Source: a bacterium
GTDB taxonomy: Bacteria > Patescibacteriota > Minisyncoccia > Phycocordibacterales > UBA9973
Direction: 5' to 3'
Assembly: GCA_037200905.1 (NCBI GenBank)
Contig: JBBCGN010000001.1
Location: 25,380-89,379, forward strand
DNA length: 64,000 nucleotides
Shown here in pieces: positions 10,262 to 24,492 of this stretch (position 1 is its first letter; each line of letters begins with the position of its first letter). The notes beneath the pieces were generated by a model. It was given only the letters and a program-made list of their open reading frames with translations. It had not been told where the DNA came from and searched no databases. A program made the translations under genes and the position numbers.

Positions 10262-11709
10262 TTAGTCCTTGCGCAAAAATAACGGCGTTTCTGGATTGCG
10301 ATGACCTTTGATGAGAGCAAGAATCTTTTCCGAAGTCTCGGGCATAAGGCCTGCGAGGTGATATGCGATGTCGGCAAGGCCGCTGACCAGATTCGCGATG
10401 ATCTGCTTGGCTTCGTCAGGATCGGTCTTTACTAATTTGAACGGTTCCTTTTCCTGGATCAGGGCATCGAGTTCGCCGGCCCAGGACCAGATAATGTCCA
10501 TGGCTTTCTGGATATTATAGGTTTGGATATTATCTATGACATCAGCATCGTACTGCCCTTCGGATATTTCTACCGCACCTTCGAGATTCGTCGTCGCCAT
10601 CTTCATGATGCGGGAGGTGAGATTGCCGAGGCCGTTCGCGAGATTGGCGTTGTAGGCTTCTTTTACTTTATCAGGCGTGATGTCGCTGTCTTCAAAAGGA
10701 TTGCACATGACGAAGCAGGAAATATCTCACTGCTTCTGTGCCGTATTCCGCCACGAGATCGAGCGGATTGATGACATTGCCGAGAGACTTTGACATCTTC
10801 TGGCCCTGGGATGTGATGAAGCCGTGATAGACCACCTTGTCCGTATTCTTTATGCCTGCGGAAAAGAGCATGGCCTGCCACATCAGGGACTGAAAGCGCA
10901 CTTGGTCCTTGCCGGCCATCTGCACCCACTTCGCCCCTCCTGCCAGAATTTCTTGAAGTTGCCTTCCGCGTCTTCCGGCCAGCCGAGAGTAGAGATGTAG
11001 TTCGTAAGAGCGTCGAACCAGACGTACATGACCTGCGCATCGTCGCCAGGCACCGGCACGCCCCAGGAAAGCCTTTCCTTTTCACGGGAAATACTGAAAT
11101 CTTCCAGTCCGCCTTTGACGAAATTGATGGCTTCTTCCCTGCGCCAGTCAGGCTGAATAACATCAGGCTGCAATAGATATGCAAGAAGCTGTTCCTGATA
11201 TCTGCTGAATTTAAAAAAATAGTTCTCTTCCTTGAGCGTCTGTATCTCGAGATGCGGATGGATGAGGCAATGGCCGCTTTCGTCGAGATCCTTTTCCAGT
11301 CTTGAAGGCTTCGCAGCCGACGCAATACTGGCCCTCATAGGCCTTTTTTATAGATATCGCCCGCAGCATCGCAGCGCTTCCAGATCTCTTGGGCAAGCAA
11401 GCGACATGATGCTCGTCCGTCGTGCGCACGAAGTTGTCGACGGAAAGGGTTGAGGGCGTCTTTCAGCTTGCGGAACTCTGCCGCATAATAGTCGACGTAG
11501 TCCTTCACCTCCTTTCCTGCTTTTTCCGCCGCTTCGTATATCTTCTGTCCGTGCTCGTCGGTACCGGTAGAGAAAAAAACTTCCTGTCCCATGAGCCTGC
11601 GGTAACGCGCTATCGCATCAGCAGCTACGACTTCGAGCGCAAATCCGACATGCGGATCGGAATTCACGTACGGCAGAGTGGTAGTAATGTAAAAATTATT
11701 TTGCTTCAT
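10262..11709 (-). CDS. metG: methionyl-tRNA synthetase (at least 3 frameshifts)
   Basis: Four collinear fragments: YITTTLPYVNSDPHVGF (HIGH region), ..WGVPVPGDDAQVMYVWFDALTNY.., KMSKSLGNVINP, and the anticodon-binding C-terminus. Confidence 0.85.
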
Positions 11710-11712
11710 CGC

Positions 11713-12774
11713 TTATTCGCGTAGAGACTTTACGCTCTCGATGTCGTTCGTCAATTCCATGATGAACACGGCCACGGGGATGGAAAGGACCATGCCCCAG
11801 AAGCCGCCGAGCTCGAAGCCGATGAGCACCGAGAGGATGACCACGAGCGGCGTGAGCCCCACCACGCGCTTGATGATGAGCGGCGTGAAGAGGAAGGTCT
11901 CGAACTGGTGGACGATGAGGTACGAGCCCGCCACGATGAGGGCCATGGAGATGCCCCCAGAGGAGATACGAGAACGCGATAGCGGGGAAAGACCGCGATG
12001 ATCACGCCGTACGGCACGAGCTGCATGATGCCGGCGATGATGGCCAAGAGGAGCGCGTATTGGATGCCGATGAGCGACAATATCAGATACAGCAGCACGG
12101 CGATGATGAGACTGATCAGCATCTGGCCCTTGACCCACAAGGCTATTTTCTTGCGCGAGCGCTCCCACAGGTCGACGGCGTAATTCTCGTATTTTATCGG
12201 CAGGATGATGCGCAGGAAATTCTCGATACCCTTCTCCTGCACGGGAAAGATAGAACGAGATGATGACGATGAGCACGACGTTGAAGAAGTTCCCGAAGGC
12301 CGCGGAAAGAGTCTGGAAGAATCCGCCGGAGAGGTTCGTGATGAAGGCTTTGGACGTGTCGAGAAGCGTGGTGAGAGACAGGCTGTGCGAGAGGTTGTTG
12401 ATGATGTCTTTCGCCCCCGAGAACGCGTCGTTCTGGAAGTAATTGATGATGGAAGAATTCGGTATATAGGTAGAGAGGAATGTCGAGAAATTGTACACCT
12501 CGGTGATGAGGAGCGGCGCGAAGAGGTAGAACACGCCGGCGAGCGCGAGAATCGAAAGCACATAGAGGATGACGATGCCGAGACCCGTCCGATGCCGAAG
12601 CGCTTCCAGAACGGCACGGTGGATTCGACGAATGATGCGAGGACGATGGACGTGAGCACGATGAGCATCAGGTCCCGCAAGTACCAGACGAGGAAGAAGC
12701 CGAGCGCCACGAGGGAAGACGCGGATGATGGAACCGGTAGATATCGAAATGCGAGTCACTGAATTCTTCTCCAT
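11713..12774 (-). CDS. AI-2E family transporter (PerM-like), frameshifted
   Basis: TM-rich fragments in two frames, with the C-terminal ...GFWGMVLSIPVAVFIMEL typical of AI-2E permeases. Confidence 0.7.
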   Translation of the reverse strand: MEKNSVTRISISTGSIIRVFPRGARLLPRLVLAGPDAHRAHVHRPRIIRRIHRAVLEALRHRTGLGIVILYVLSILALAGVFYLFAPLLITEVYNFSTFLSTYIPNSSIINYFQNDAFSGAKDIINNLSHSLSLTTLLDTSKAFITNLSGGFFQTLSAAFGNFFNVVLIVIISFYLSRAGEGYREFPAHHPADKIRELRRRPVGALAQENSLVGQGPDADQSHHRRAAVSDIVAHRHPIRAPLGHHRRHHAARAVRRDHRGLSPLSRSRISSGGISMALIVAGSYLIVHQFETFLFTPLIIKRVVGLTPLVVILSVLIGFELGGFWGMVLSIPVAVFIMELTNDIESVKSLRE

Positions 12775-17989: not shown

Positions 17990-18592
17990 CTATTGTAACA
18001 CGCTCTCTACGGCGCCGATCAGTTCTCTCGGATCTTCAATGATAGCTGCAGGATCGCCTTTTTCCAGGCTTTCCCTGCCGTGCTGACCCCAGAGCACTCC
18101 GATCGATGGCACTCCGCAATCGCTCGCTTCGCGCATATCGCCGAGCGTATCCGTGATGAATACCGTGTTTTCAGGCATAATGGCATGCATTTCCAGAAGC
18201 TTTTTTATCTTAACTACCTTACTCTTGGCGATATCGGCACCCATAATATCGCTGAAGCATTCCCGCACCCCTTCTTTTGCCAAAAATGCGTCGATATATC
18301 TGCTCGGCGTCGAAGAGACGATAGCGAGATATATTTTCTGCGACAGAAATCGCACGGATTCGCGCAGTATTTCCTGAATGCTCATGGTAACGAGGTTTGC
18401 ATTGTACTTTTCGCCGAAATTTTCAGGTACGACATACCCCGCATCAAGTTCTTTTTGCAGTCCTTCATGAAAATTTCCGTTAGCCCATGAATCAAAACGT
18501 TCACGAGAAAGGTCGGGATTCAATTCCGTATGAATGTTATAGCTTCCGTCGAGCGTGTTCACCAGCACGCCGTCGAAATCGAACATCACCAA
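17990..18592 (-). CDS. HAD-superfamily hydrolase
   Basis: MVMFDFDGVLVNT, the DxDGV motif. Confidence 0.7.
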   Translation of the reverse strand: MVMFDFDGVLVNTLDGSYNIHTELNPDLSRERFDSWANGNFHEGLQKELDAGYVVPENFGEKYNANLVTMSIQEILRESVRFLSQKIYLAIVSSTPSRYIDAFLAKEGVRECFSDIMGADIAKSKVVKIKKLLEMHAIMPENTVFITDTLGDMREASDCGVPSIGVLWGQHGRESLEKGDPAAIIEDPRELIGAVESVLQ

Positions 18593-19033
18593 TTTTTTAG
18601 GCTGATCGTTATTTTTTTAGATTCGTATTCATCGAGATATGCTTTGGCTTGTTTCAATACTTCCTTGTTATTGTCATAGGTCAACGCAGCAAAAGCTTCA
18701 TCATATGAAGCCCATTTATATGCTTTGATTTCCTCCTCTTGTATTTTAACTGCATCACTCGATGCAAAACCGACACAATACTGCACTATCTTGTGAAAGA
18801 TTTTTCCCTCTCCCCAATCAAATGTGTACTCTTCAAGAATCGGCGGCACATCTATAAAACGGCAACGTGTGATTCCTGTCTCTTCTTCAAGCTCACGGAT
18901 AACAGTTTCCATTGCCGTTTCTCCGCCTTCATGCGTGACCCTTCGGAAAACCCCAGTGTCCTGCAGTCTGCTGTATGATCAGGAATTTATTTTCAAATAC
19001 CACTATTGCGCCGAATGATCTGTCTTCCGTCAT
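18586..19033 (-). CDS. NUDIX hydrolase (one frameshift)
   Basis: Nudix box ..GHA..GETAMETVIRELEEETGI. The start ATG overlaps the ileS stop (ATGA). Confidence 0.75.
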
Positions 19034-22000
19034 TTTAGCAATGTTACTTTAAAGATCAAATCGCCAATCTTGATTTCTGCGCTATTATTCTCTTCGAAAG
19101 ATATTTTTTTCGCTCCGACAGTCTTCAAGAAATCCGATTCGAACTTCTTCACCAGTTTTTCTCCTTCTGTGTCAGTTCCGATAGTCAAAGCAATGGCATC
19201 GTTCGGCTGCAGACCTTCTTTCTTGCGCAGATCTGCACGGCGCGGACCAGTTCGCGATAATTCCCTTCTTGTTTCAGCTCGGGAGTGATGTTGAGATCTA
19301 GCCGTACAATGCCTTCTGTCGGTTGCTCATACGTTTCAAAATCTGGCTCAACTTTTTTTTACATTTACTTCATCTTTAATAATCTCTACAAGTTCTGGCA
19401 TATGAGGGATATCACTTGATTGATATTTAACTTTCAATACTGAGAGAGGCTGTCTAACCTTTATATTCTTTTCTTGCCTTAACTTTAGGGCTTCTGAAAC
19501 AATATCGCGAACATGTCTCATAGTTTCAATTGAAGCAGTATCTATTGGGAGAAACTAGCAATGGCCAATCAGTGAGATGCACGCTTTCGACATCCGTTTC
19601 CGTGCGGAGCCTGGTCCATATATCCTCGGCCGAGAACGGCGCGAGCGGCGCCATGAGCTTTGCCAGATTTTTCAGCACGAAATAGAGCGTCTGCTTCGCT
19701 TCCACATCCCCTTCCTTGATGCGCTCGCGAGGAGCGACGCAAGTACCAGGTGGAAAGGTCATCGATAAATTCGCGGATGGCGCGGGTCGGCTCGAGCAGC
19801 TTGAAATTGTCGAGATGCGTCGTCGAAAGCTCGATCAATTGGTTCAACCTCGCTACGATCCATTTGTCGAGAACATTTTTGAGGATATGTCATTCGTCTC
19901 CAATTCCTTGTCTCTGTATAATTCATAAAATGCCAGTACGTTGTACAGGAGATTGAAGACCTTGTTGTGAAGCTCGGCCACGGTCTTCTCGTCAAAATTC
20001 TTCGATTCACCCGGCTGGTTGACCGAGGTACATCCACATGCGGAGGGTGTCCACACCGTATGTATCCATCATGAGCCACGGATCGATGACATTGCCGAGA
20101 GACTTCGACATCTTCTTGCCGTCGCGGTCGAGCAAGTGCCCGAGGCAGATGACGTTTTTGTACGCCTTGCCGCGGCCCATGAGCACGCCGACGGCATGGA
20201 GCGTATAGAACCAGCCGCGAGTCTGGTCGATGGCTTCCGAGATGAAGTCCGCCGGATAGCCCGCGCCTTCCACCCAGTCCTTGTTCTCGAACGGATAATG
20301 ATCCTGCGCGAACGGCATAGCGCCCGAGTCGAACCACACGTCCATGACTTCCTTGACGCGAGCCATGGCTTGCCCGTTCTCGTCTACCAGATCCACATGG
20401 TCGATGTACGGACGATGCAGGTCGAGCTCCCAGTTGTCATTGTGAGGGAACGGCACATACGGCGCTTCGCGGATATCAGCGTTCTCGAAATAGTGGAAAT
20501 CCTTCTTATCGCGCACCATCTCGAGAGAGCGTTCGGCGTCGTAGCCGTGCGTGCCGGCCAAGAGGAGCCAGGCCGGGCCGCCGTGCGTCACGATCAGGAT
20601 ATTCTTCCCCTGCCATTTTATCTCCACATCATGGATGAAGTTCATCATCCAGTTCTTTACCGTGTTATATGATTCTCCGCCTTCGGGCGCGCGGTCGAAA
20701 TTCTCGGCCGTCTTCGGGAAATCTTCATGGAATTTGTGCCACGTGCCGCCGTTGTATACGCCGATATCCACTTCGCGCAAGCGCTCGTCGAAGAGCAGGG
20801 CTTCGGCGGGCAGACCCAGGCCGTCGTGTATGATTTGCGCCGTCTCGGTGGTGCGCACGAACGGCGAAGAGATGATGAGATCGATACCGGCTTCCTTGAG
20901 CTTCGGCACTTGCGCGACTACTTGTTCCTTTCCTTTTTCAGTCAGGTGTACCGGCGCTTTCGGGTCGGCGCTCGCAATGCCTTTCAAGTTGTGCTCGGCC
21001 TCGCCATGGCGCATGACGAAATACTTGTTGCCGGACTTCTTGGCGTACTTCTTCAGCGTCGCCAGCGAATCGACGACGACCCTCTTCTTGTCGGCGGTTT
21101 CCCAGACCGGCAGCGGGGTGCCCCAATAGCGCTCGCGGGAGATAGCCCAGTCCTTGATGTCCTTCAGCCATTCGCCGAAGCGGCCGTCGCGGATATGCGA
21201 CGGTTCCCAATTTATTTCCTGATTCTGTGCTATCAGCTGTTCTTTTATCACCGGACTCGACATGCGGATATACCAGGAATCGCGGGCATAGTAGATGAGG
21301 GCGGTCTTGCAGCGCCAGCAGTGCGGATACGAGTGCTCGTATTTCTCTTTCTTGAAGAGCAGGCCTCTGTGCGCCAGATCCTTAATGATGTCCACGGCCA
21401 CTTCCTCGTCTTTCACGAAGCGGCCCTCGAGGAAACCCGTGCCTTTGACGAAATGTCCGGCTTCGTCGACGAGATGATGCTTCGGCAAGCCGATCTTGGT
21501 GCCGAGCACGAAGTCGTCCTGTCCGTACATCACGGCCGTGTGCACCACGCCGGTACCGTCTTCCGTGGTCACGAAATCCGCATCATAGACCTTGAAGGCT
21601 TTTGCCAAAGCTTCTTTCTGCGATTCCGGCACCTGTTCCTGCATGAATGGATACAGGGGTTCGTATTCGAGGCCGAGCAGATCTCTGCCGTATATTGTTT
21701 CCAGTTCTTCGTATTCGCCTTCAACGATACCGAGGCGCGCTTTGGCAAGAATCAAGATCTGTTCTTCTTTTTTTATCTTTACGTATTCTATTTTTTCTCC
21801 CACAGCGAGAGCGACATTACCCGGCAACGTCCACGGCGTCGTCGTCCAAGCCAGAATATAAGTATCTTCTTGGCCTTTCACCTTGAACTTCGCCGTCACC
21901 GACAAATCTTTGTCTATCTGGTACCCTTGCGCCAGCTCGTGCGAGGACAGCGCCGTACCGTCGCGCGGGCACCATGGCACCACGCGGTAATCCTTGTAGA

Positions 22001-22520
22001 GCAAGCCCTGCTCGTCCACCTTTTTCAATATGCTCCAGACGGATTCGATGTATTCGTTCTTGTACGTGATGTACGGATGCTTCTCGTCCACCCAGTAGCC
22101 CATGCGGCGGGTGAACTTGCTCCACATGTCCACGTATTCCCAGACGCTCTCGCGGCATTTCTGGTTGAACTCGGCGATGCCGTACTCGTCGATATCTTTC
22201 TTCGACTTGAAGCCGAGCGTCTTTTCCACCTGGAGCTCCACCGGCAGGCCGTGAGTGTCCCAGCCGCCTTTGCGGCGCACGTGGTAGCCGCGCATGGTGC
22301 GGTAGCGCGGAATGGCGTCCTTGAACGACCGGGCCTCCACGTGATGGATGCCCGGCTTGCCGTTCGCCGTCGGCGGGCCTTCGTAGAATATGAATTCCCC
22401 TTTCGGCGAAGGCTTCTTCAATGTCTCTTCGAATATATTGCGCTCTTTCCAGAACTCCAGGATTCGTTCTTCCTTGAGAGCCGCTTCGCTTTTTTTGTTT
22501 TCCATATTTTTTTCTTCCAT
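19030..22520 (-). CDS. ileS: isoleucyl-tRNA synthetase, type 2 (eukaryote-like), about 1160 aa, with an inserted histidine-phosphatase domain; several frameshifts in the C-terminal third
   Basis: PTANGKPGIHHV, WAISRERYWGTPLPVW, DVWFDSG, KMSKSLGNVIDP. The C-terminus ..DLRKKEGLQPNDAIALTIG.. is recovered across shifts. The PGAM-like insertion is at about 20480-21030. Confidence 0.9.
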
Positions 22521-22599
22521 ATAGATTACTATATTTTGACTTCGTTCAGATGTTATATAAATAAATTTATAAACAGCCCTCACTTGTCAAAATAAAATT

Positions 22600-22793: not shown

Positions 22794-24492
22794 CTACATT
22801 TTCTCCGGCGTTTCGATGCCAAGGAGATAGAGGCCGTTCTTCATGGTCTCGCGGAATGCTTGCACGAGGGCCACGCGATATGGCGCGTGGATATCTTCTT
22901 TGTTCACTATCTGGGTATTGCCATAAAAAGTATTGAAGGCGCTCGCAAGTTCGATCAGATATGTAGCGACATGATGCGGCTCAAGAGTTTCATGGGTATA
23001 CACCACGATTTCCGGGAACTGATAGAGCATGTGCTCAAGCACTGTCGCCTCGCTCGGCGCTTTTGCAAAGCCGGGAACGATGCCTTCAGCCTGAGCTTTC
23101 TTCAAGATGCTTCCCGCGCGCACGGCCGTGTATTGGAGATACGGGCCGGAATCGCCTTCGAAGGAAATGGATTTCTCGAAATCGTAAATGATGTCGCCCA
23201 TGAGCGATGAGCGCAGAATGGAATATTTCACTGCCGCAACGCCGACAATCTTCGCAATGGCGTCTTTTTCTTCCTGCGACAGTTCGCGCCCTTTCACCTT
23301 TTCATGGATCAGCTCCATAGAATCGTTCAAGAGCGATTCTCCCGTGACCACATTGCCTTTTCGCGAAGACATCTTGCCCGAAGCGAACTTCATCATGCCG
23401 TGGGTAACATGCTTCATCCGTGATTCATAATCGGGATTAATGAGGGAAACGGCTTTCTGCACCACTTTCATGTATTCGCCCTGCTCGATGGCGGTGACGA
23501 TGATAGACGTGTCCGGGTTTTCTTTCTCGAATTTCGTCACCGTCAGCCCTAACTCTTTCGTCTCGTACGTCGGCAAGCCCTTGCTGGTGACAAACACTCT
23601 CGTATGAAGCTTCGGATCGTGATTTTCAGCATGAAAAACGATGGCGCCGTCCGAATCTTCAAAAACTTTAGGAGTATTCTCTTTGACGATCTCCATGCCG
23701 ATAGGAGCCATTTCTGATTCGAAGAAATAATGATTGAACTTTGTGCCGAGCAATTTATAGATCTCTTCGAAGGCGTCGAGCGTCACTTGCTTGCCCCAAT
23801 CGTAGACGGTGTTCACCTCCTCGTCGCTCTTGTCGTAGACTTTCTTGTTGATGCTGTCTATTTCTTCCTTGGCGGCAGGATCATTCTCGTAGGCATCGCT
23901 GCCGCGGGCGTACTGCTCGCCGATCCACAGCGCGGATTTTCCCGCGAACGGAACGCCGGCATGCAGGATGCCCCAGATGGCCTTGGCCACGTGCGGACCG
24001 ACATCGCCTTGATAGTTTGCACGAATTGTTTTCGCGCCGGAATATTCAAAAATACGAGCAATAGATTCACCGATAGCATTCGTCATCAAGTGGCCGATGT
24101 GAAACGGCCTTGAAAGGATTCGGGTCAGTGTACTCAACCATGATTTTCTTGCCAGCTGAAATATCGCTCTTACCCCAATCCTCCTTTTGTTTTAAAATTT
24201 CCGCAATTGCATCTGAGAAAAATTTGCGAGACATGTAGAAATTAATAAATCCAGCACCGGCGATTTCTACTTTCTCTATCTCTGCTGGCAGTCTACTATC
24301 TAACTGTTCTTTTAGCTTTCCTGCGAGTTCTTTCGGGTTTGTCTTTAAATTCTTCGCGAGCGCCAATGCGACATTTGTAGAATAATCGCCGTTCTGTAAT
24401 TCTTCCGGATGTTCCACGATAAAATCGCCCTCTTCTATGCCGAGGTTTAAGAGCGCTGTTTTTATGAGAGCTATGATTGCGTCTTTAGTCAT
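22794..24492 (-). CDS. argS: arginyl-tRNA synthetase (one frameshift near 24100)
   Basis: N-terminal Arg_tRNA_synt_N domain in 24067..24492. The catalytic core has HIGH (FHIGHLMTNAIG). Confidence 0.85.

What the first reader, a model, noticed from the sequence alone, without database searches (positions are those of the whole stretch)
20480..21030. IleRS carries an in-frame insertion of a complete histidine-phosphatase (PGAM-like) domain
Within the single uninterrupted 858-codon ileS ORF there is an extra domain of about 190 aa. It lies between WAISRERYWGTPLPVW (residues about 479-494) and DVWFDSG (about 749-754). Canonical IleRS has only about 60-80 residues here.

The insert has the hallmarks of the histidine phosphatase superfamily. 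These are FVMRHGEAEHN (RHG catalytic His), SSPFVRTTETA (second Arg), and LIVTHGGP (C-terminal catalytic His).

Both junctions are in frame with no stop or start, so this is a domain insertion and not a nested gene. I am not aware of any aaRS carrying a PGAM-family domain. It could be a proofreading or regulatory phosphatase (for example acting on aminoacyl-adenylate or Ap4A by-products) or a moonlighting activity.
Basis: partly seen in the sequence, partly recalled or inferred. Interest (0 to 1): 0.8.

Follow-up and report, generated by a model that had tools for sequence, protein, structure and literature searches.

The report
Phosphatase domain built into isoleucyl-tRNA synthetase
The enzyme that loads isoleucine onto tRNA in this tiny uncultured (CPR/Patescibacteria) bacterium really does carry a complete, apparently active phosphatase domain spliced into its catalytic core; hundreds of related genomes share this, no searchable paper describes it, and its role in translation is unknown.

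Summary
The minus-strand ileS encodes a type-2 IleRS. About 203 residues (nt 20430-21038) replace a roughly 5-residue loop of the CP3 subdomain. This insert is a complete branch-1 histidine phosphatase (Pfam His_Phos_1, E=1.6e-33; closest solved relatives PhoE, iPSP1 and CobC).

One correction is needed. The 858-codon ORF is cut short by an assembly error. An independent assembly with no substitutions over 6.6 kb gives an intact 1157-aa protein. The window carries six 1-nt indels in the 3' third of ileS.

The insertion is not a chimera. At least 190 species-level Patescibacteria genomes have it, and 73 loci show one uninterrupted ORF of about 1150-1220 aa. The catalytic residues (ORF numbering) Arg525, His526, Arg577 and His667 are invariant in 74/74 sequences. 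Asn532 and Glu604 are kept in 73/74. The AlphaFold2 model is confident (pLDDT 94, pTM 0.92).

New context: the closest free-standing relatives sit directly upstream of insert-less ileS genes in 8 of 9 look-ups. The same module is also fused to ArgRS and to TsaC/Sua5, and occurs in 2-4 copies in some IleRSs.

Best reading: an active accessory phosphatase coupled to adenylate-forming tRNA enzymes. The substrate is unknown; PPi or AMP is my inferred guess. I found no literature on it, so I rate it a new variant of a known kind.

The parts
19030..22520 (-). Complete ileS gene as it should read: a type-2 IleRS of about 1162 aa from the ATG at 22520, or 1157 aa from the ATG at 22505. In the window it is broken by six 1-nt assembly indels at 20028, 19881, 19732, 19549, 19360 and 19234.
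   Evidence: tblastn of homologues maps the C-terminal third to other frames. An intact 1157-aa protein, P0268, sits in the same 90% cluster. The DNA alignment to Logan contig L101 shows 0 substitutions and 8 indels. NCBIfam TIGR00392 ileS scores 725 bits against a cut-off of 621.
20007..22583 (-). Its stop is an artefact of the extra C at 20028.
21039..22520 (-). N-terminal IleRS part: first half of the Rossmann fold (non-canonical signature GIHH at 22341-22352), CP core, CP1 editing domain, CP2, the CP2-CP3 linker DWAISRERYWG and the first strands of CP3.
   Evidence: Pfam tRNA-synt_1 covers residues 41-512. PDB alignment runs to 8c8w chain 7-479, and editing-domain entries 1wk8 and 1wny match. 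Foldseek TM 0.70 to 8c8v and 1ile.
20430..21038 (-). Inserted histidine-phosphatase domain with its linkers (ORF residues 516-718, 203 aa). The Pfam His_Phos_1 core is at 20526-21020.
   Evidence: Insert-less partner IleRSs align on both sides with only about 3 residues in between.
21003..21011 (-). RHG motif, Arg525-His526-Gly527. His526 is the predicted phospho-acceptor.
   Evidence: Invariant in 74/74 full-length sequences (numbered R504 H505 G506 from Met22).
20988..20990 (-). Asn532 of the RHGxxxxN motif.
   Evidence: 73/74 conserved.
20853..20855 (-). Arg577, the second phosphate-binding Arg (SPFVRTTETA).
   Evidence: 74/74.
20772..20774 (-). Glu604, the predicted proton donor (RLRE).
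   Evidence: 73/74.
20583..20585 (-). His667, the second catalytic His (LIVTHGG).
   Evidence: 74/74.
20030..20429 (-). Return into IleRS: second half of CP3 (DLHRPYID 20400-20423), second half of the Rossmann fold (DVWFDSG 20322-20342, KMSKS 20100-20114).
19030..20028 (-). Anticodon-binding and C-terminal (DUF5915-type) domains of IleRS, spread over three frames in the window.
   Evidence: Pfam domains of the intact copy are given.
22794..24492 (-). argS directly upstream (one 1-nt indel at 24109). It belongs to the conserved argS-[His_Phos]-ileS-recO block.

Best explanation
What it is: a bona fide type-2 isoleucyl-tRNA synthetase. A whole PhoE/CobC-like histidine phosphatase domain of about 200 aa is inserted into a surface loop of the CP3 subdomain. 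The insertion point is 22 residues downstream of the CP2-CP3 linker (DWAISRERYWG). In yeast IleRS that linker lines the pocket for the tRNA 3' end. The rest of the synthetase is intact: a GIHH signature, the CP1 editing domain, KMSKS and the anticodon-binding domains.

How it most likely works:
1. The domain is a working phosphatase. The Arg-His...Arg...Glu...His centre would form and hydrolyse a phospho-histidine intermediate. This is inferred from conservation.
2. It acts as a dedicated accessory of IleRS, not as a passenger. In this lineage it is built in (cis). In sister CPR lineages it is a separate small protein encoded directly in front of ileS (trans).
3. The same module is also fused to ArgRS and to the t6A enzyme TsaC/Sua5. 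All three partners split ATP into an adenylate and pyrophosphate. My leading guess is therefore that it removes a shared phosphorylated by-product at the site of production, PPi or AMP-type nucleotides, which pulls or regulates adenylate formation.

The architecture, the conservation and the genomic associations are shown. The activity, the coupling and the substrate are inferred.
For: The insert is real and precisely bounded.
- Pfam E=1.6e-33.
- The PDB alignment leaves a 203-aa gap against 8c8w.
- Insert-less IleRSs align on both sides.
- The site lies in CP3 (Candida CP3 473-534, yeast CP3 459-526; the linker forms part of the tRNA/reveromycin pocket; PMC7191050 and PMC7955072).

The fold is intact. 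The AF2 model has pLDDT 94.2 and pTM 0.92, with blocks above 90 through both junctions. TM to IleRS2 structures is 0.70.

The catalytic residues are kept. R, H, G, R and H are 74/74, and N and E are 73/74, at 39% mean identity in the insert.

It is phosphatase-like. The profile against PDB gives PhoE 2e-29, iPSP1 5e-28, CobC 4e-25 and canonical dPGMs about 1e-16.

It is a lineage trait. At least 190 species-level genomes carry it, and 73 have full-length ORFs.

There is a cis/trans partnership. Eight of nine closest free-standing relatives sit directly upstream of an insert-less ileS, abutting or overlapping it by 8-10 nt in several cases.

Fusions recur.
- 2-4 copies occur at three or more sites within IleRS.
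- There is an ArgRS-His_Phos fusion.
- Two Sua5/YrdC-His_Phos cluster representatives exist. One carries the same SGNKYF-MRH junction motif. The one looked up lies in an unrelated gene context.
Against: - There is no biochemical evidence at all, and the substrate is a guess.
- I know of no branch-1 histidine phosphatase shown to hydrolyse PPi. This rests on my own knowledge.
- If the role were PPi or AMP removal, it is unclear why IleRS rather than all aaRSs would need it.
- The free gene lies in a strongly conserved housekeeping block (smpB-argS-X-ileS-recO). In two contigs it stays there although ileS is elsewhere (L086, L103). So adjacency may partly reflect synteny, and the ArgRS fusion may be a neighbour read-through.
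- The inserted domain is mildly acidic (median pI 6.1). This argues against a general RNA-binding role.
I could not measure how the phosphatase pocket faces the synthetic site.
Confidence: 0.5

Rival explanations
1. Autonomous housekeeping enzyme captured by its neighbour. The domain would be an ordinary small-molecule phosphatase or the 'missing' phosphoglycerate mutase of these Parcubacteria. Its gene happened to lie next to ileS and was later absorbed into a permissive surface loop. There would be no functional link to aminoacylation.
For: - The free gene sits in a conserved syntenic block of unrelated housekeeping genes.
- It stays there when ileS is absent from the block.
- PGM is reported as undetected in several shallow Parcubacteria clades (PMC7304191).
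- There are weak matches to archaeal-type dPGM (80.8 bits) and to small PGMs 1fzt and 9mmh.
- CP3 is a variable peripheral subdomain that tolerates different topologies (PMC7191050).
Against: - A read-through of neighbours would give an N-terminal fusion, not an insertion about 490 residues into the gene.
- The same module was inserted at several other sites of IleRS. It was also independently fused to TsaC/Sua5 in an unrelated gene context.
- All dPGM equivalog cut-offs are missed by a wide margin (80.8 against 225, 50 against 261, 35 against 316).
- The best solved relatives are phosphatases.
- The model predicts a confidently placed domain, not a floppy one (pTM 0.92).
Confidence: 0.27
2. 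Regulatory or protein-directed phosphatase. The domain would remove an inhibitory phosphate from IleRS itself or from a partner, in the manner of PGAM5, Sts or SixA. Alternatively it would sense a phosphorylated glycolytic metabolite and tune aminoacylation to energy state.
For: Branch-1 members include protein and phospho-histidine phosphatases. The insert has a weak SixA match (40 bits). Its placement next to the catalytic core looks rigid. Kinase toxins that inactivate aaRSs are known (HipA family; my own knowledge).
Against: The SixA cut-off is not met (40 against 74.5), and that match covers only the first 78 residues. The domain keeps the 60-residue cap region of small-molecule phosphatases such as PhoE. 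No kinase is associated in the neighbourhoods examined.
Confidence: 0.12
3. tRNA-end repair. The domain would remove a 2'/3'-phosphate or pyrophosphate from the CCA end of tRNAIle before charging.
For: The insertion is close in sequence to the linker that lines the A76 pocket. Toxins that phosphorylate or cleave tRNA 3' ends exist (my own knowledge).
Against: I know of no histidine phosphatase that acts on RNA ends. The inserted domain is acidic. TsaC/Sua5, another fusion partner, does not bind tRNA ends. A repair role would not be specific to IleRS.
Confidence: 0.07
4. Artefact or decaying gene: a chimeric misassembly, a pseudogene, or a selfish in-frame element such as an intein.
For: The window's ileS is frameshifted six times, and other genes (argS, metG, NUDIX) are also broken.
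Against: - All indels lie outside the insert. They are absent from an otherwise identical independent assembly.
- The architecture recurs in at least 190 genomes.
- There is no Hint/intein domain.
- The junction residues are not Cys/Ser/Thr.
- There are no flanking repeats and no GC discontinuity.
Confidence: 0.02

Closest known systems
Type-2 (eukaryote-like, mupirocin-resistant) IleRS, e.g. Priestia megaterium IleRS2 (8C8U/8C8W) and Thermus thermophilus IleRS (1ILE)
   Same: Same enzyme. It scores 651 bits (E=2.5e-194) against 8c8w, and Foldseek gives TM 0.70. CP1 editing domain, KMSKS, Anticodon_1 and the DUF5915 C-terminus are present. It carries the non-canonical G/AXHH signature (GIHH) described for hyper-resistant IleRS2 (PMC10485003).
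   Different: About 203 extra residues forming a complete phosphatase domain sit in the CP3 loop. The CP3 zinc-knuckle cysteines seen in Thermus and in insert-less CPR IleRSs are absent in the window's protein.
PhoE broad-specificity phosphatase (1H2E/1EBB), metal-independent phosphoserine phosphatase iPSP1 (4IJ5) and CobC alpha-ribazole phosphatase (6NRU)
   Same: Same fold and catalytic set (RHG, N, R, E, H), similar size of about 200 aa and a similar cap length. They are the best profile hits, 2e-29 to 4e-25.
   Different: Those are free-standing enzymes. No NCBIfam equivalog cut-off is reached (CobC 87.5 against 162.9; PspA 59.5 against 350), so no substrate can be transferred. The subfamily has its own N-terminal signature, N-x-Y-[FY]-x-x-R-H.
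IleRS with an embedded GNAT domain (NCBIfam NF040702, ileS_w_GNAT)
   Same: A precedent for an unrelated enzymatic domain embedded in IleRS. One relative (P0257) carries both His_Phos and GNAT domains.
   Different: A different domain at a different position. The window scores 284 bits against a cut-off of 1999 and has no GNAT.
Bifunctional RNase H/acid phosphatase of actinobacteria (NCBIfam PRK07238, Rv2228c type)
   Same: A CobC-like histidine phosphatase covalently joined to a nucleic-acid enzyme. It is the third-best NCBIfam match to the insert (80.3 bits).
   Different: That is an end-to-end fusion, not an insertion, and the partner is RNase H. The cut-off (326) is not met.
aaRS fused to an enzyme that uses or processes its products, e.g. 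mycobacterial LysX (LysRS-MprF) (my own knowledge)
   Same: It shows that covalent coupling of an aaRS to a second catalytic activity can be functional.
   Different: LysX is a terminal fusion with a known substrate link through Lys-tRNA. Here the link is unknown.

Membership tests
Histidine phosphatase superfamily, branch 1 (Pfam PF00300) | Match to the family HMM above the curated threshold | tested here: met
   116.5 bits against 21.7, E=1.6e-33, profile positions 2-166 of 194.
Histidine phosphatase superfamily, branch 1 (Pfam PF00300) | Catalytic core: RHG with nucleophilic His, second Arg, acid/base Glu, second His (and Asn of RHGxxxxN) | tested here: met
   R525 H526 G527 R577 H667 in 74/74; N532 and E604 in 73/74.
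Histidine phosphatase superfamily, branch 1 (Pfam PF00300) | Alpha/beta fold of the family | tested here: met
   Alternating strands and helices at pLDDT above 90. The profile aligns end to end with PhoE 3-167.
Histidine phosphatase superfamily, branch 1 (Pfam PF00300) | Phosphatase or mutase activity through a phospho-histidine intermediate | not testable with these tools
   Needs an enzyme assay.
Cofactor-dependent phosphoglycerate mutase (dPGM) | Score above the NCBIfam equivalog cut-offs for dPGM models | tested here: not met
   dPGM_arch 80.8 against 225; GpmB 50.1 against 261; PRK01295 35.4 against 316. Canonical dPGM structures rank far below the phosphatases.
Cofactor-dependent phosphoglycerate mutase (dPGM) | dPGM-specific substrate-binding residues (E. 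coli Lys100, Arg116-Arg117, Asn186; my own knowledge) | tested here: inconclusive
   The stretch after the catalytic Glu follows the PhoE pattern G-x3-G-K (alignment) rather than the dPGM pattern. No residue-by-residue alignment to E. coli GpmA was run.
Alpha-ribazole phosphatase CobC (TIGR03162) | Equivalog cut-off | tested here: not met
   87.5 against 162.9 bits.
Isoleucyl-tRNA synthetase (TIGR00392), type 2 | Equivalog cut-off, class I signature motifs and CP1 editing domain | tested here: met
   725 bits against 621 even for the truncated ORF. GIHH (G/AXHH variant) and KMSKS are present. Editing-domain structures match with E about 1e-29.
IleRS with GNAT domain (NF040702) | Exception-model cut-off and presence of a GNAT domain | tested here: not met
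   284 against 1999 bits. No acetyltransferase Pfam hit.
Intein / self-splicing insertion | Hint domain, Cys/Ser/Thr at the N-junction and at +1 after a C-terminal His-Asn | tested here: not met
   No Hint or intein Pfam hit. A PHN motif exists, but the next residue is Asp here and is unconserved in relatives (consensus), and the N-junction is Lys/Ser-Gly-Asn.

The most novel reading that the evidence does not exclude
A large part of the Candidate Phyla Radiation uses a previously unrecognised accessory phosphatase for adenylate-forming enzymes of the tRNA world. It is built into IleRS (one to four copies), encoded as a separate subunit in front of ileS, or fused to ArgRS or to the t6A enzyme TsaC/Sua5. 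It would perform a step that other bacteria either leave to bulk enzymes or do not need. Candidates are local hydrolysis of PPi or AMP, or removal of a phosphorylated inhibitor or a blocking group. That would be a new class of aaRS auxiliary activity alongside editing and tRNA-binding domains.
Probability: 0.35. Interest if true: 0.85.

Novelty: new variant of a known kind. Interest (0 to 1): 0.72.

Why it matters
Aminoacyl-tRNA synthetases are among the best-studied enzymes. Their known add-on domains are editing, tRNA-binding or, in eukaryotes, signalling modules.

Here a catalytically conserved phosphatase is inserted into the catalytic core of an essential synthetase. It is maintained across hundreds of species of a major bacterial radiation. 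It recurs as a separate neighbour gene and as fusions to other ATP-to-adenylate enzymes. This points to an unrecognised requirement of translation in these ultra-small, metabolically reduced cells.

It also gives a directly testable handle. One recombinant protein, one point mutant and a substrate panel would be enough to start.

On the practical side, annotation pipelines call these proteins simply IleRS. The embedded enzyme is therefore invisible to metabolic reconstructions, which matters where PGM or phosphatases are scored as 'missing' in Parcubacteria.

Tried and rejected
- **Misassembly or pseudogene:** rejected. The window is identical to an independent Logan assembly over 6.6 kb apart from 8 single-base indels, none of them in the insert.
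- **Nested gene or intein:** rejected. There is no stop or start at the junctions and no Hint domain.
- **Recent mobile insertion:** no flanking direct or inverted repeats and no GC step.
- **Structure prediction with full-length homologues translated from loci:** I repeated it with proteins from the searches. Model coordinates are not exposed, so the distance and orientation of the phosphatase pocket relative to the synthetic site could not be measured.
- **Foldseek of the whole model:** returns only IleRS-type chains.
- **NUDIX and HAD genes downstream of ileS in the window:** tested as conserved partners. They appear in only 2-3 of 80 loci, so I dropped them.
- **RNA-binding electrostatics:** not supported.
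- **Family-I pyrophosphatase signature in the window:** none found. This is uninformative for a 64-kb piece.
- **Rfam and tRNA scans of the window:** nothing found.
- **Literature:** nine term combinations gave no paper describing the architecture.
- **Protein search output:** The search for homologous proteins listed only fragments under 700 aa. At first this looked like split genes. Genome loci showed that the intact ORFs are about 1150-1220 aa.
Full report
**1. The observation**

The minus strand carries an 858-codon ORF at 20007-22583.

| Motif | ORF residues |
|---|---|
| WAISRERYWGTPLPVW | 479-494 |
| RHG | 525-527 |
| FVRTTETA | 575-582 |
| LIVTHGG | 663-669 |
| DVWFDSG | 748-754 |

Pfam splits the class-I synthetase domain in two. 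Between the halves it places His_Phos_1 at residues 522-686, with E=1.6e-33 and 116.5 bits against a threshold of 21.7. NCBIfam calls the protein ileS at 725 bits against a cut-off of 621, even in truncated form.

**2. The ORF is not the whole gene, but the real gene is intact**

The ORF ends in ...MWMYLGQPAG*. Homologues continue as ...MWMYSVNQPGESKNFDEK. The rest of IleRS is present downstream in other frames, as far as 19030.

The exact 837-aa product (from Met22) is on record from an NCBI MAG contig of 320 kb. The same 90% cluster holds an intact 1157-aa protein, P0268, from an independent Logan assembly.

I aligned that contig (L101) to the window over 6.6 kb. There were no substitutions and eight single-base indels:
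- six in ileS (20028, 19881, 19732, 19549, 19360, 19234);
- one in argS (24109);
- one in the NUDIX gene (18931).

Most lie in short base runs. metG is fragmented as well. These are assembly errors. None touches the insert or its junctions. The likely start is the ATG at 22520 or 22505, which agrees with homologues.

**3. Boundaries and location of the insert**

- Against solved type-2 IleRS (8c8w and 1ile), residues up to ORF 515 align with chain 7-479. Residues from ORF 719 align with chain 485-619. So about 203 residues replace about 5.
- Insert-less CPR IleRSs align to both flanks with about 3 residues in between.
- By correspondence with Candida IleRS (CP3 = 473-534) and yeast IleRS (CP3 = 459-526), the site is inside the CP3 subdomain.
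- CP3 is a peripheral element whose topology differs between species. It begins just after the CP2-CP3 linker DWxxSRxRYWG, which helps form the pocket for the tRNA 3' end and for reveromycin (PMC7191050, PMC7955072).
- There is no GC step and there are no flanking repeats.

**4. What the insert is**

It is a complete branch-1 histidine phosphatase.

A profile of 25 inserts finds these solved relatives:

| Solved structure | E-value |
|---|---|
| PhoE (1h2e) | 2e-29 |
| Metal-independent phosphoserine phosphatase (4ij5) | 5e-28 |
| CobC (6nru) | 4e-25 |
| Small PGMs | about 1e-22 |
| Canonical dPGMs | about 1e-16 |

No NCBIfam equivalog threshold is met: CobC 87.5 against 162.9, archaeal dPGM 80.8 against 225, PspA 59.5 against 350. 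So the family is certain and the substrate is not.

Across 74 full-length sequences the IleRS core is 55% identical on average and the insert 39%. Even so, Arg525, His526, Gly527, Arg577 and His667 are kept in 74/74. Asn532 and Glu604 are kept in 73/74.

AlphaFold2 with a 150-sequence alignment gives pLDDT 94.2 and pTM 0.92, with confident blocks through both junctions. The non-insert part superposes on IleRS2 structures with TM 0.70.

**5. Distribution**

- A protein search returned more than 100 hits carrying PF00133 plus PF00300. They are labelled Paceibacterota, Parcubacteria, Nomura-, Wolfe-, Uhr- or Niyogibacteria. Forty of them span both junctions.
- Of the 80 loci fetched, nearly all not cut by a contig end have one uninterrupted ORF of about 1100-1280 aa, most of them 1150-1220. 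Seventy-three of the 80 cover the whole 837-aa query.
- argS-ileS synteny holds in 55 of the 80.

The window is therefore a Paceibacteria-type CPR genome, and the insert is a lineage trait.

**6. New context that bears on function**

An exhaustive HMMER search with the insert alone gave 11,425 representatives at E≤1e-3. Among the best hits, 93 have IleRS flanks and 52 do not. Most of the 52 are 184-220 aa.

I looked up nine of the free-standing proteins. In eight, the gene lies directly upstream of an insert-less ileS of 931-984 aa. This is usually arranged as smpB-argS-HisPhos-ileS-recO, with 1-nt gaps or 8-10-nt overlaps in several cases. In one of the eight (L083) ileS is adjacent but convergent on the opposite strand. 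Two divergent IleRS subtypes show this arrangement.

Other architectures exist:
- IleRSs with two to four His_Phos domains. These sit in tandem in CP3, between WFDSG and KMSKS, or after KMSKS. One case looks like an intragenic duplication.
- An IleRS with His_Phos plus GNAT plus an IS200-like domain.
- An ArgRS with a C-terminal His_Phos, in a genome where ileS has left the block.
- Two cluster representatives in which TsaC/Sua5 (YrdC domain) is fused to a His_Phos domain. One keeps the same SGNKYF-MRH junction motif. The one looked up lies in an unrelated gene context.

**7. Mechanism**

*Shown:* a real, in-frame, structurally complete domain with an invariant catalytic set. It has recurrent physical or genomic association with IleRS and with two other enzymes that convert ATP into an adenylate plus PPi.

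*Inferred:* the domain is an active phosphomonoesterase working through phospho-His526. It serves IleRS as an accessory, in cis here and in trans in sister lineages. The common denominator of the partners suggests a shared phosphorylated by-product as substrate, either PPi or AMP-type nucleotides. I give the coupled-accessory reading about 0.5. The specific PPi/AMP substrate is well below that.

*Against:*
- no assay exists;
- I know of no branch-1 member that hydrolyses PPi;
- the IleRS preference is unexplained;
- adjacency could be inherited synteny, because the free gene stays in the block in two contigs where ileS has left it.

*Main rival (about 0.27):* an autonomous phosphatase, or the PGM that metabolic surveys fail to find in some Parcubacteria (PMC7304191), absorbed from the neighbouring gene. 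Arguments against this rival are the internal insertion site, the repeated insertions at other IleRS sites, the independent TsaC fusion, and the failed dPGM thresholds.

*Minor rivals:* regulatory or protein phosphatase, and tRNA-end repair. The acidic insert (median pI 6.1) does not favour RNA binding. Artefact readings are excluded as far as sequence data can show.

**8. Comparison with what is known, and novelty**

- The host enzyme is an ordinary IleRS2.
- It has the non-canonical G/AXHH signature (GIHH). Twenty-three of the 74 sequences share a G/AXHH motif, and it is linked to mupirocin hyper-resistance (PMC10485003).
- The insert is an ordinary-looking PhoE/CobC-type phosphatase.
- Embedded foreign domains in IleRS have a precedent in the NCBIfam model ileS_w_GNAT.
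- Histidine phosphatases fused to nucleic-acid enzymes have a precedent in RNase H/acid phosphatase.
- The combination is in public databases under generic names. I found no description in the searchable literature.

I rate it a new variant of a known kind, namely an aaRS with an accessory domain. Interest is fairly high because the catalytic conservation and the cis/trans/fusion pattern argue for a real but unknown function.

**9. Limits**

- Only 10-kb loci were available, so co-occurrence with ppa or PGM genes could not be tested.
- The taxon labels of many MAGs are submitters' labels.

Noticed in passing
window 18931, 19234, 19360, 19549, 19732, 19881, 20028, 24109: Eight single-base indels relative to an otherwise identical independent assembly (0 substitutions in 6.6 kb). 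Most lie in short homopolymers. They break ileS (6 times), argS and a NUDIX gene, so the source contig (an NCBI MAG, 320 kb) is indel-rich and its gene calls are truncated.
   Followed up: yes
window 10262-12774 (-): metG also looks fragmented. The MetRS N-terminus is at 11335-11709, and a KMSKS-containing piece lies in another frame at about 10716-10907. This is probably the same kind of assembly error.
   Followed up: partly
window 22341-22352 (-): The class-I HIGH signature of this IleRS reads GIHH. This is the non-canonical G/AXHH form that Brkic et al. 2023 linked to mupirocin hyper-resistance in IleRS2. Twenty-three of the 74 insert-bearing sequences (the window plus 22 of its 73 relatives) have G/AXHH; most of the rest have HYGH.
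   Followed up: partly
window 21075-21101 and 20346-20399 (-); compare L087, L092 and L098 ileS: The CP3 zinc-knuckle cysteine pairs (CxxC ... CxC) are present in insert-less CPR IleRSs and in some insert-bearing ones. In the window's protein they are replaced by non-Cys residues (VWETADKKR ... LVDENGQAM).
   Followed up: partly
proteins P0132, P0149, P0164, P0230, P0252, P0229, P0257 (one search hits): Some IleRSs carry two to four histidine-phosphatase domains at different sites. One has IS200-like Y1 transposase, His_Phos and GNAT domains in a single ORF. IleRS seems to be a hot spot for domain accretion in these lineages.
   Followed up: partly
P0153, P0240 (locus L102:977-2140); P0192 (locus L103:6001-8070): The same phosphatase module is fused C-terminally to the t6A enzyme TsaC/Sua5 (YrdC domain) and to ArgRS.
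   Followed up: partly
window 18586-19033 (-) and 17990-18592 (-): A NUDIX hydrolase gene overlaps the ileS stop (ATGA) and is followed by a HAD hydrolase. A NUDIX or HAD gene lies directly downstream of ileS in only 2 of 80 related loci each (4 loci in all), so this is probably not a conserved partnership.
   Followed up: yes
window 1-64000: There are no tRNA genes and no Rfam family at gathering threshold in 64 kb.
   Followed up: yes
locus L083:2682-5609 (-): In one contig, the insert-less ileS next to the free phosphatase is itself called as two ORFs, split around tRNA-synt_1 profile position 186. I did not check whether this is a real split gene or another assembly error.
   Followed up: no
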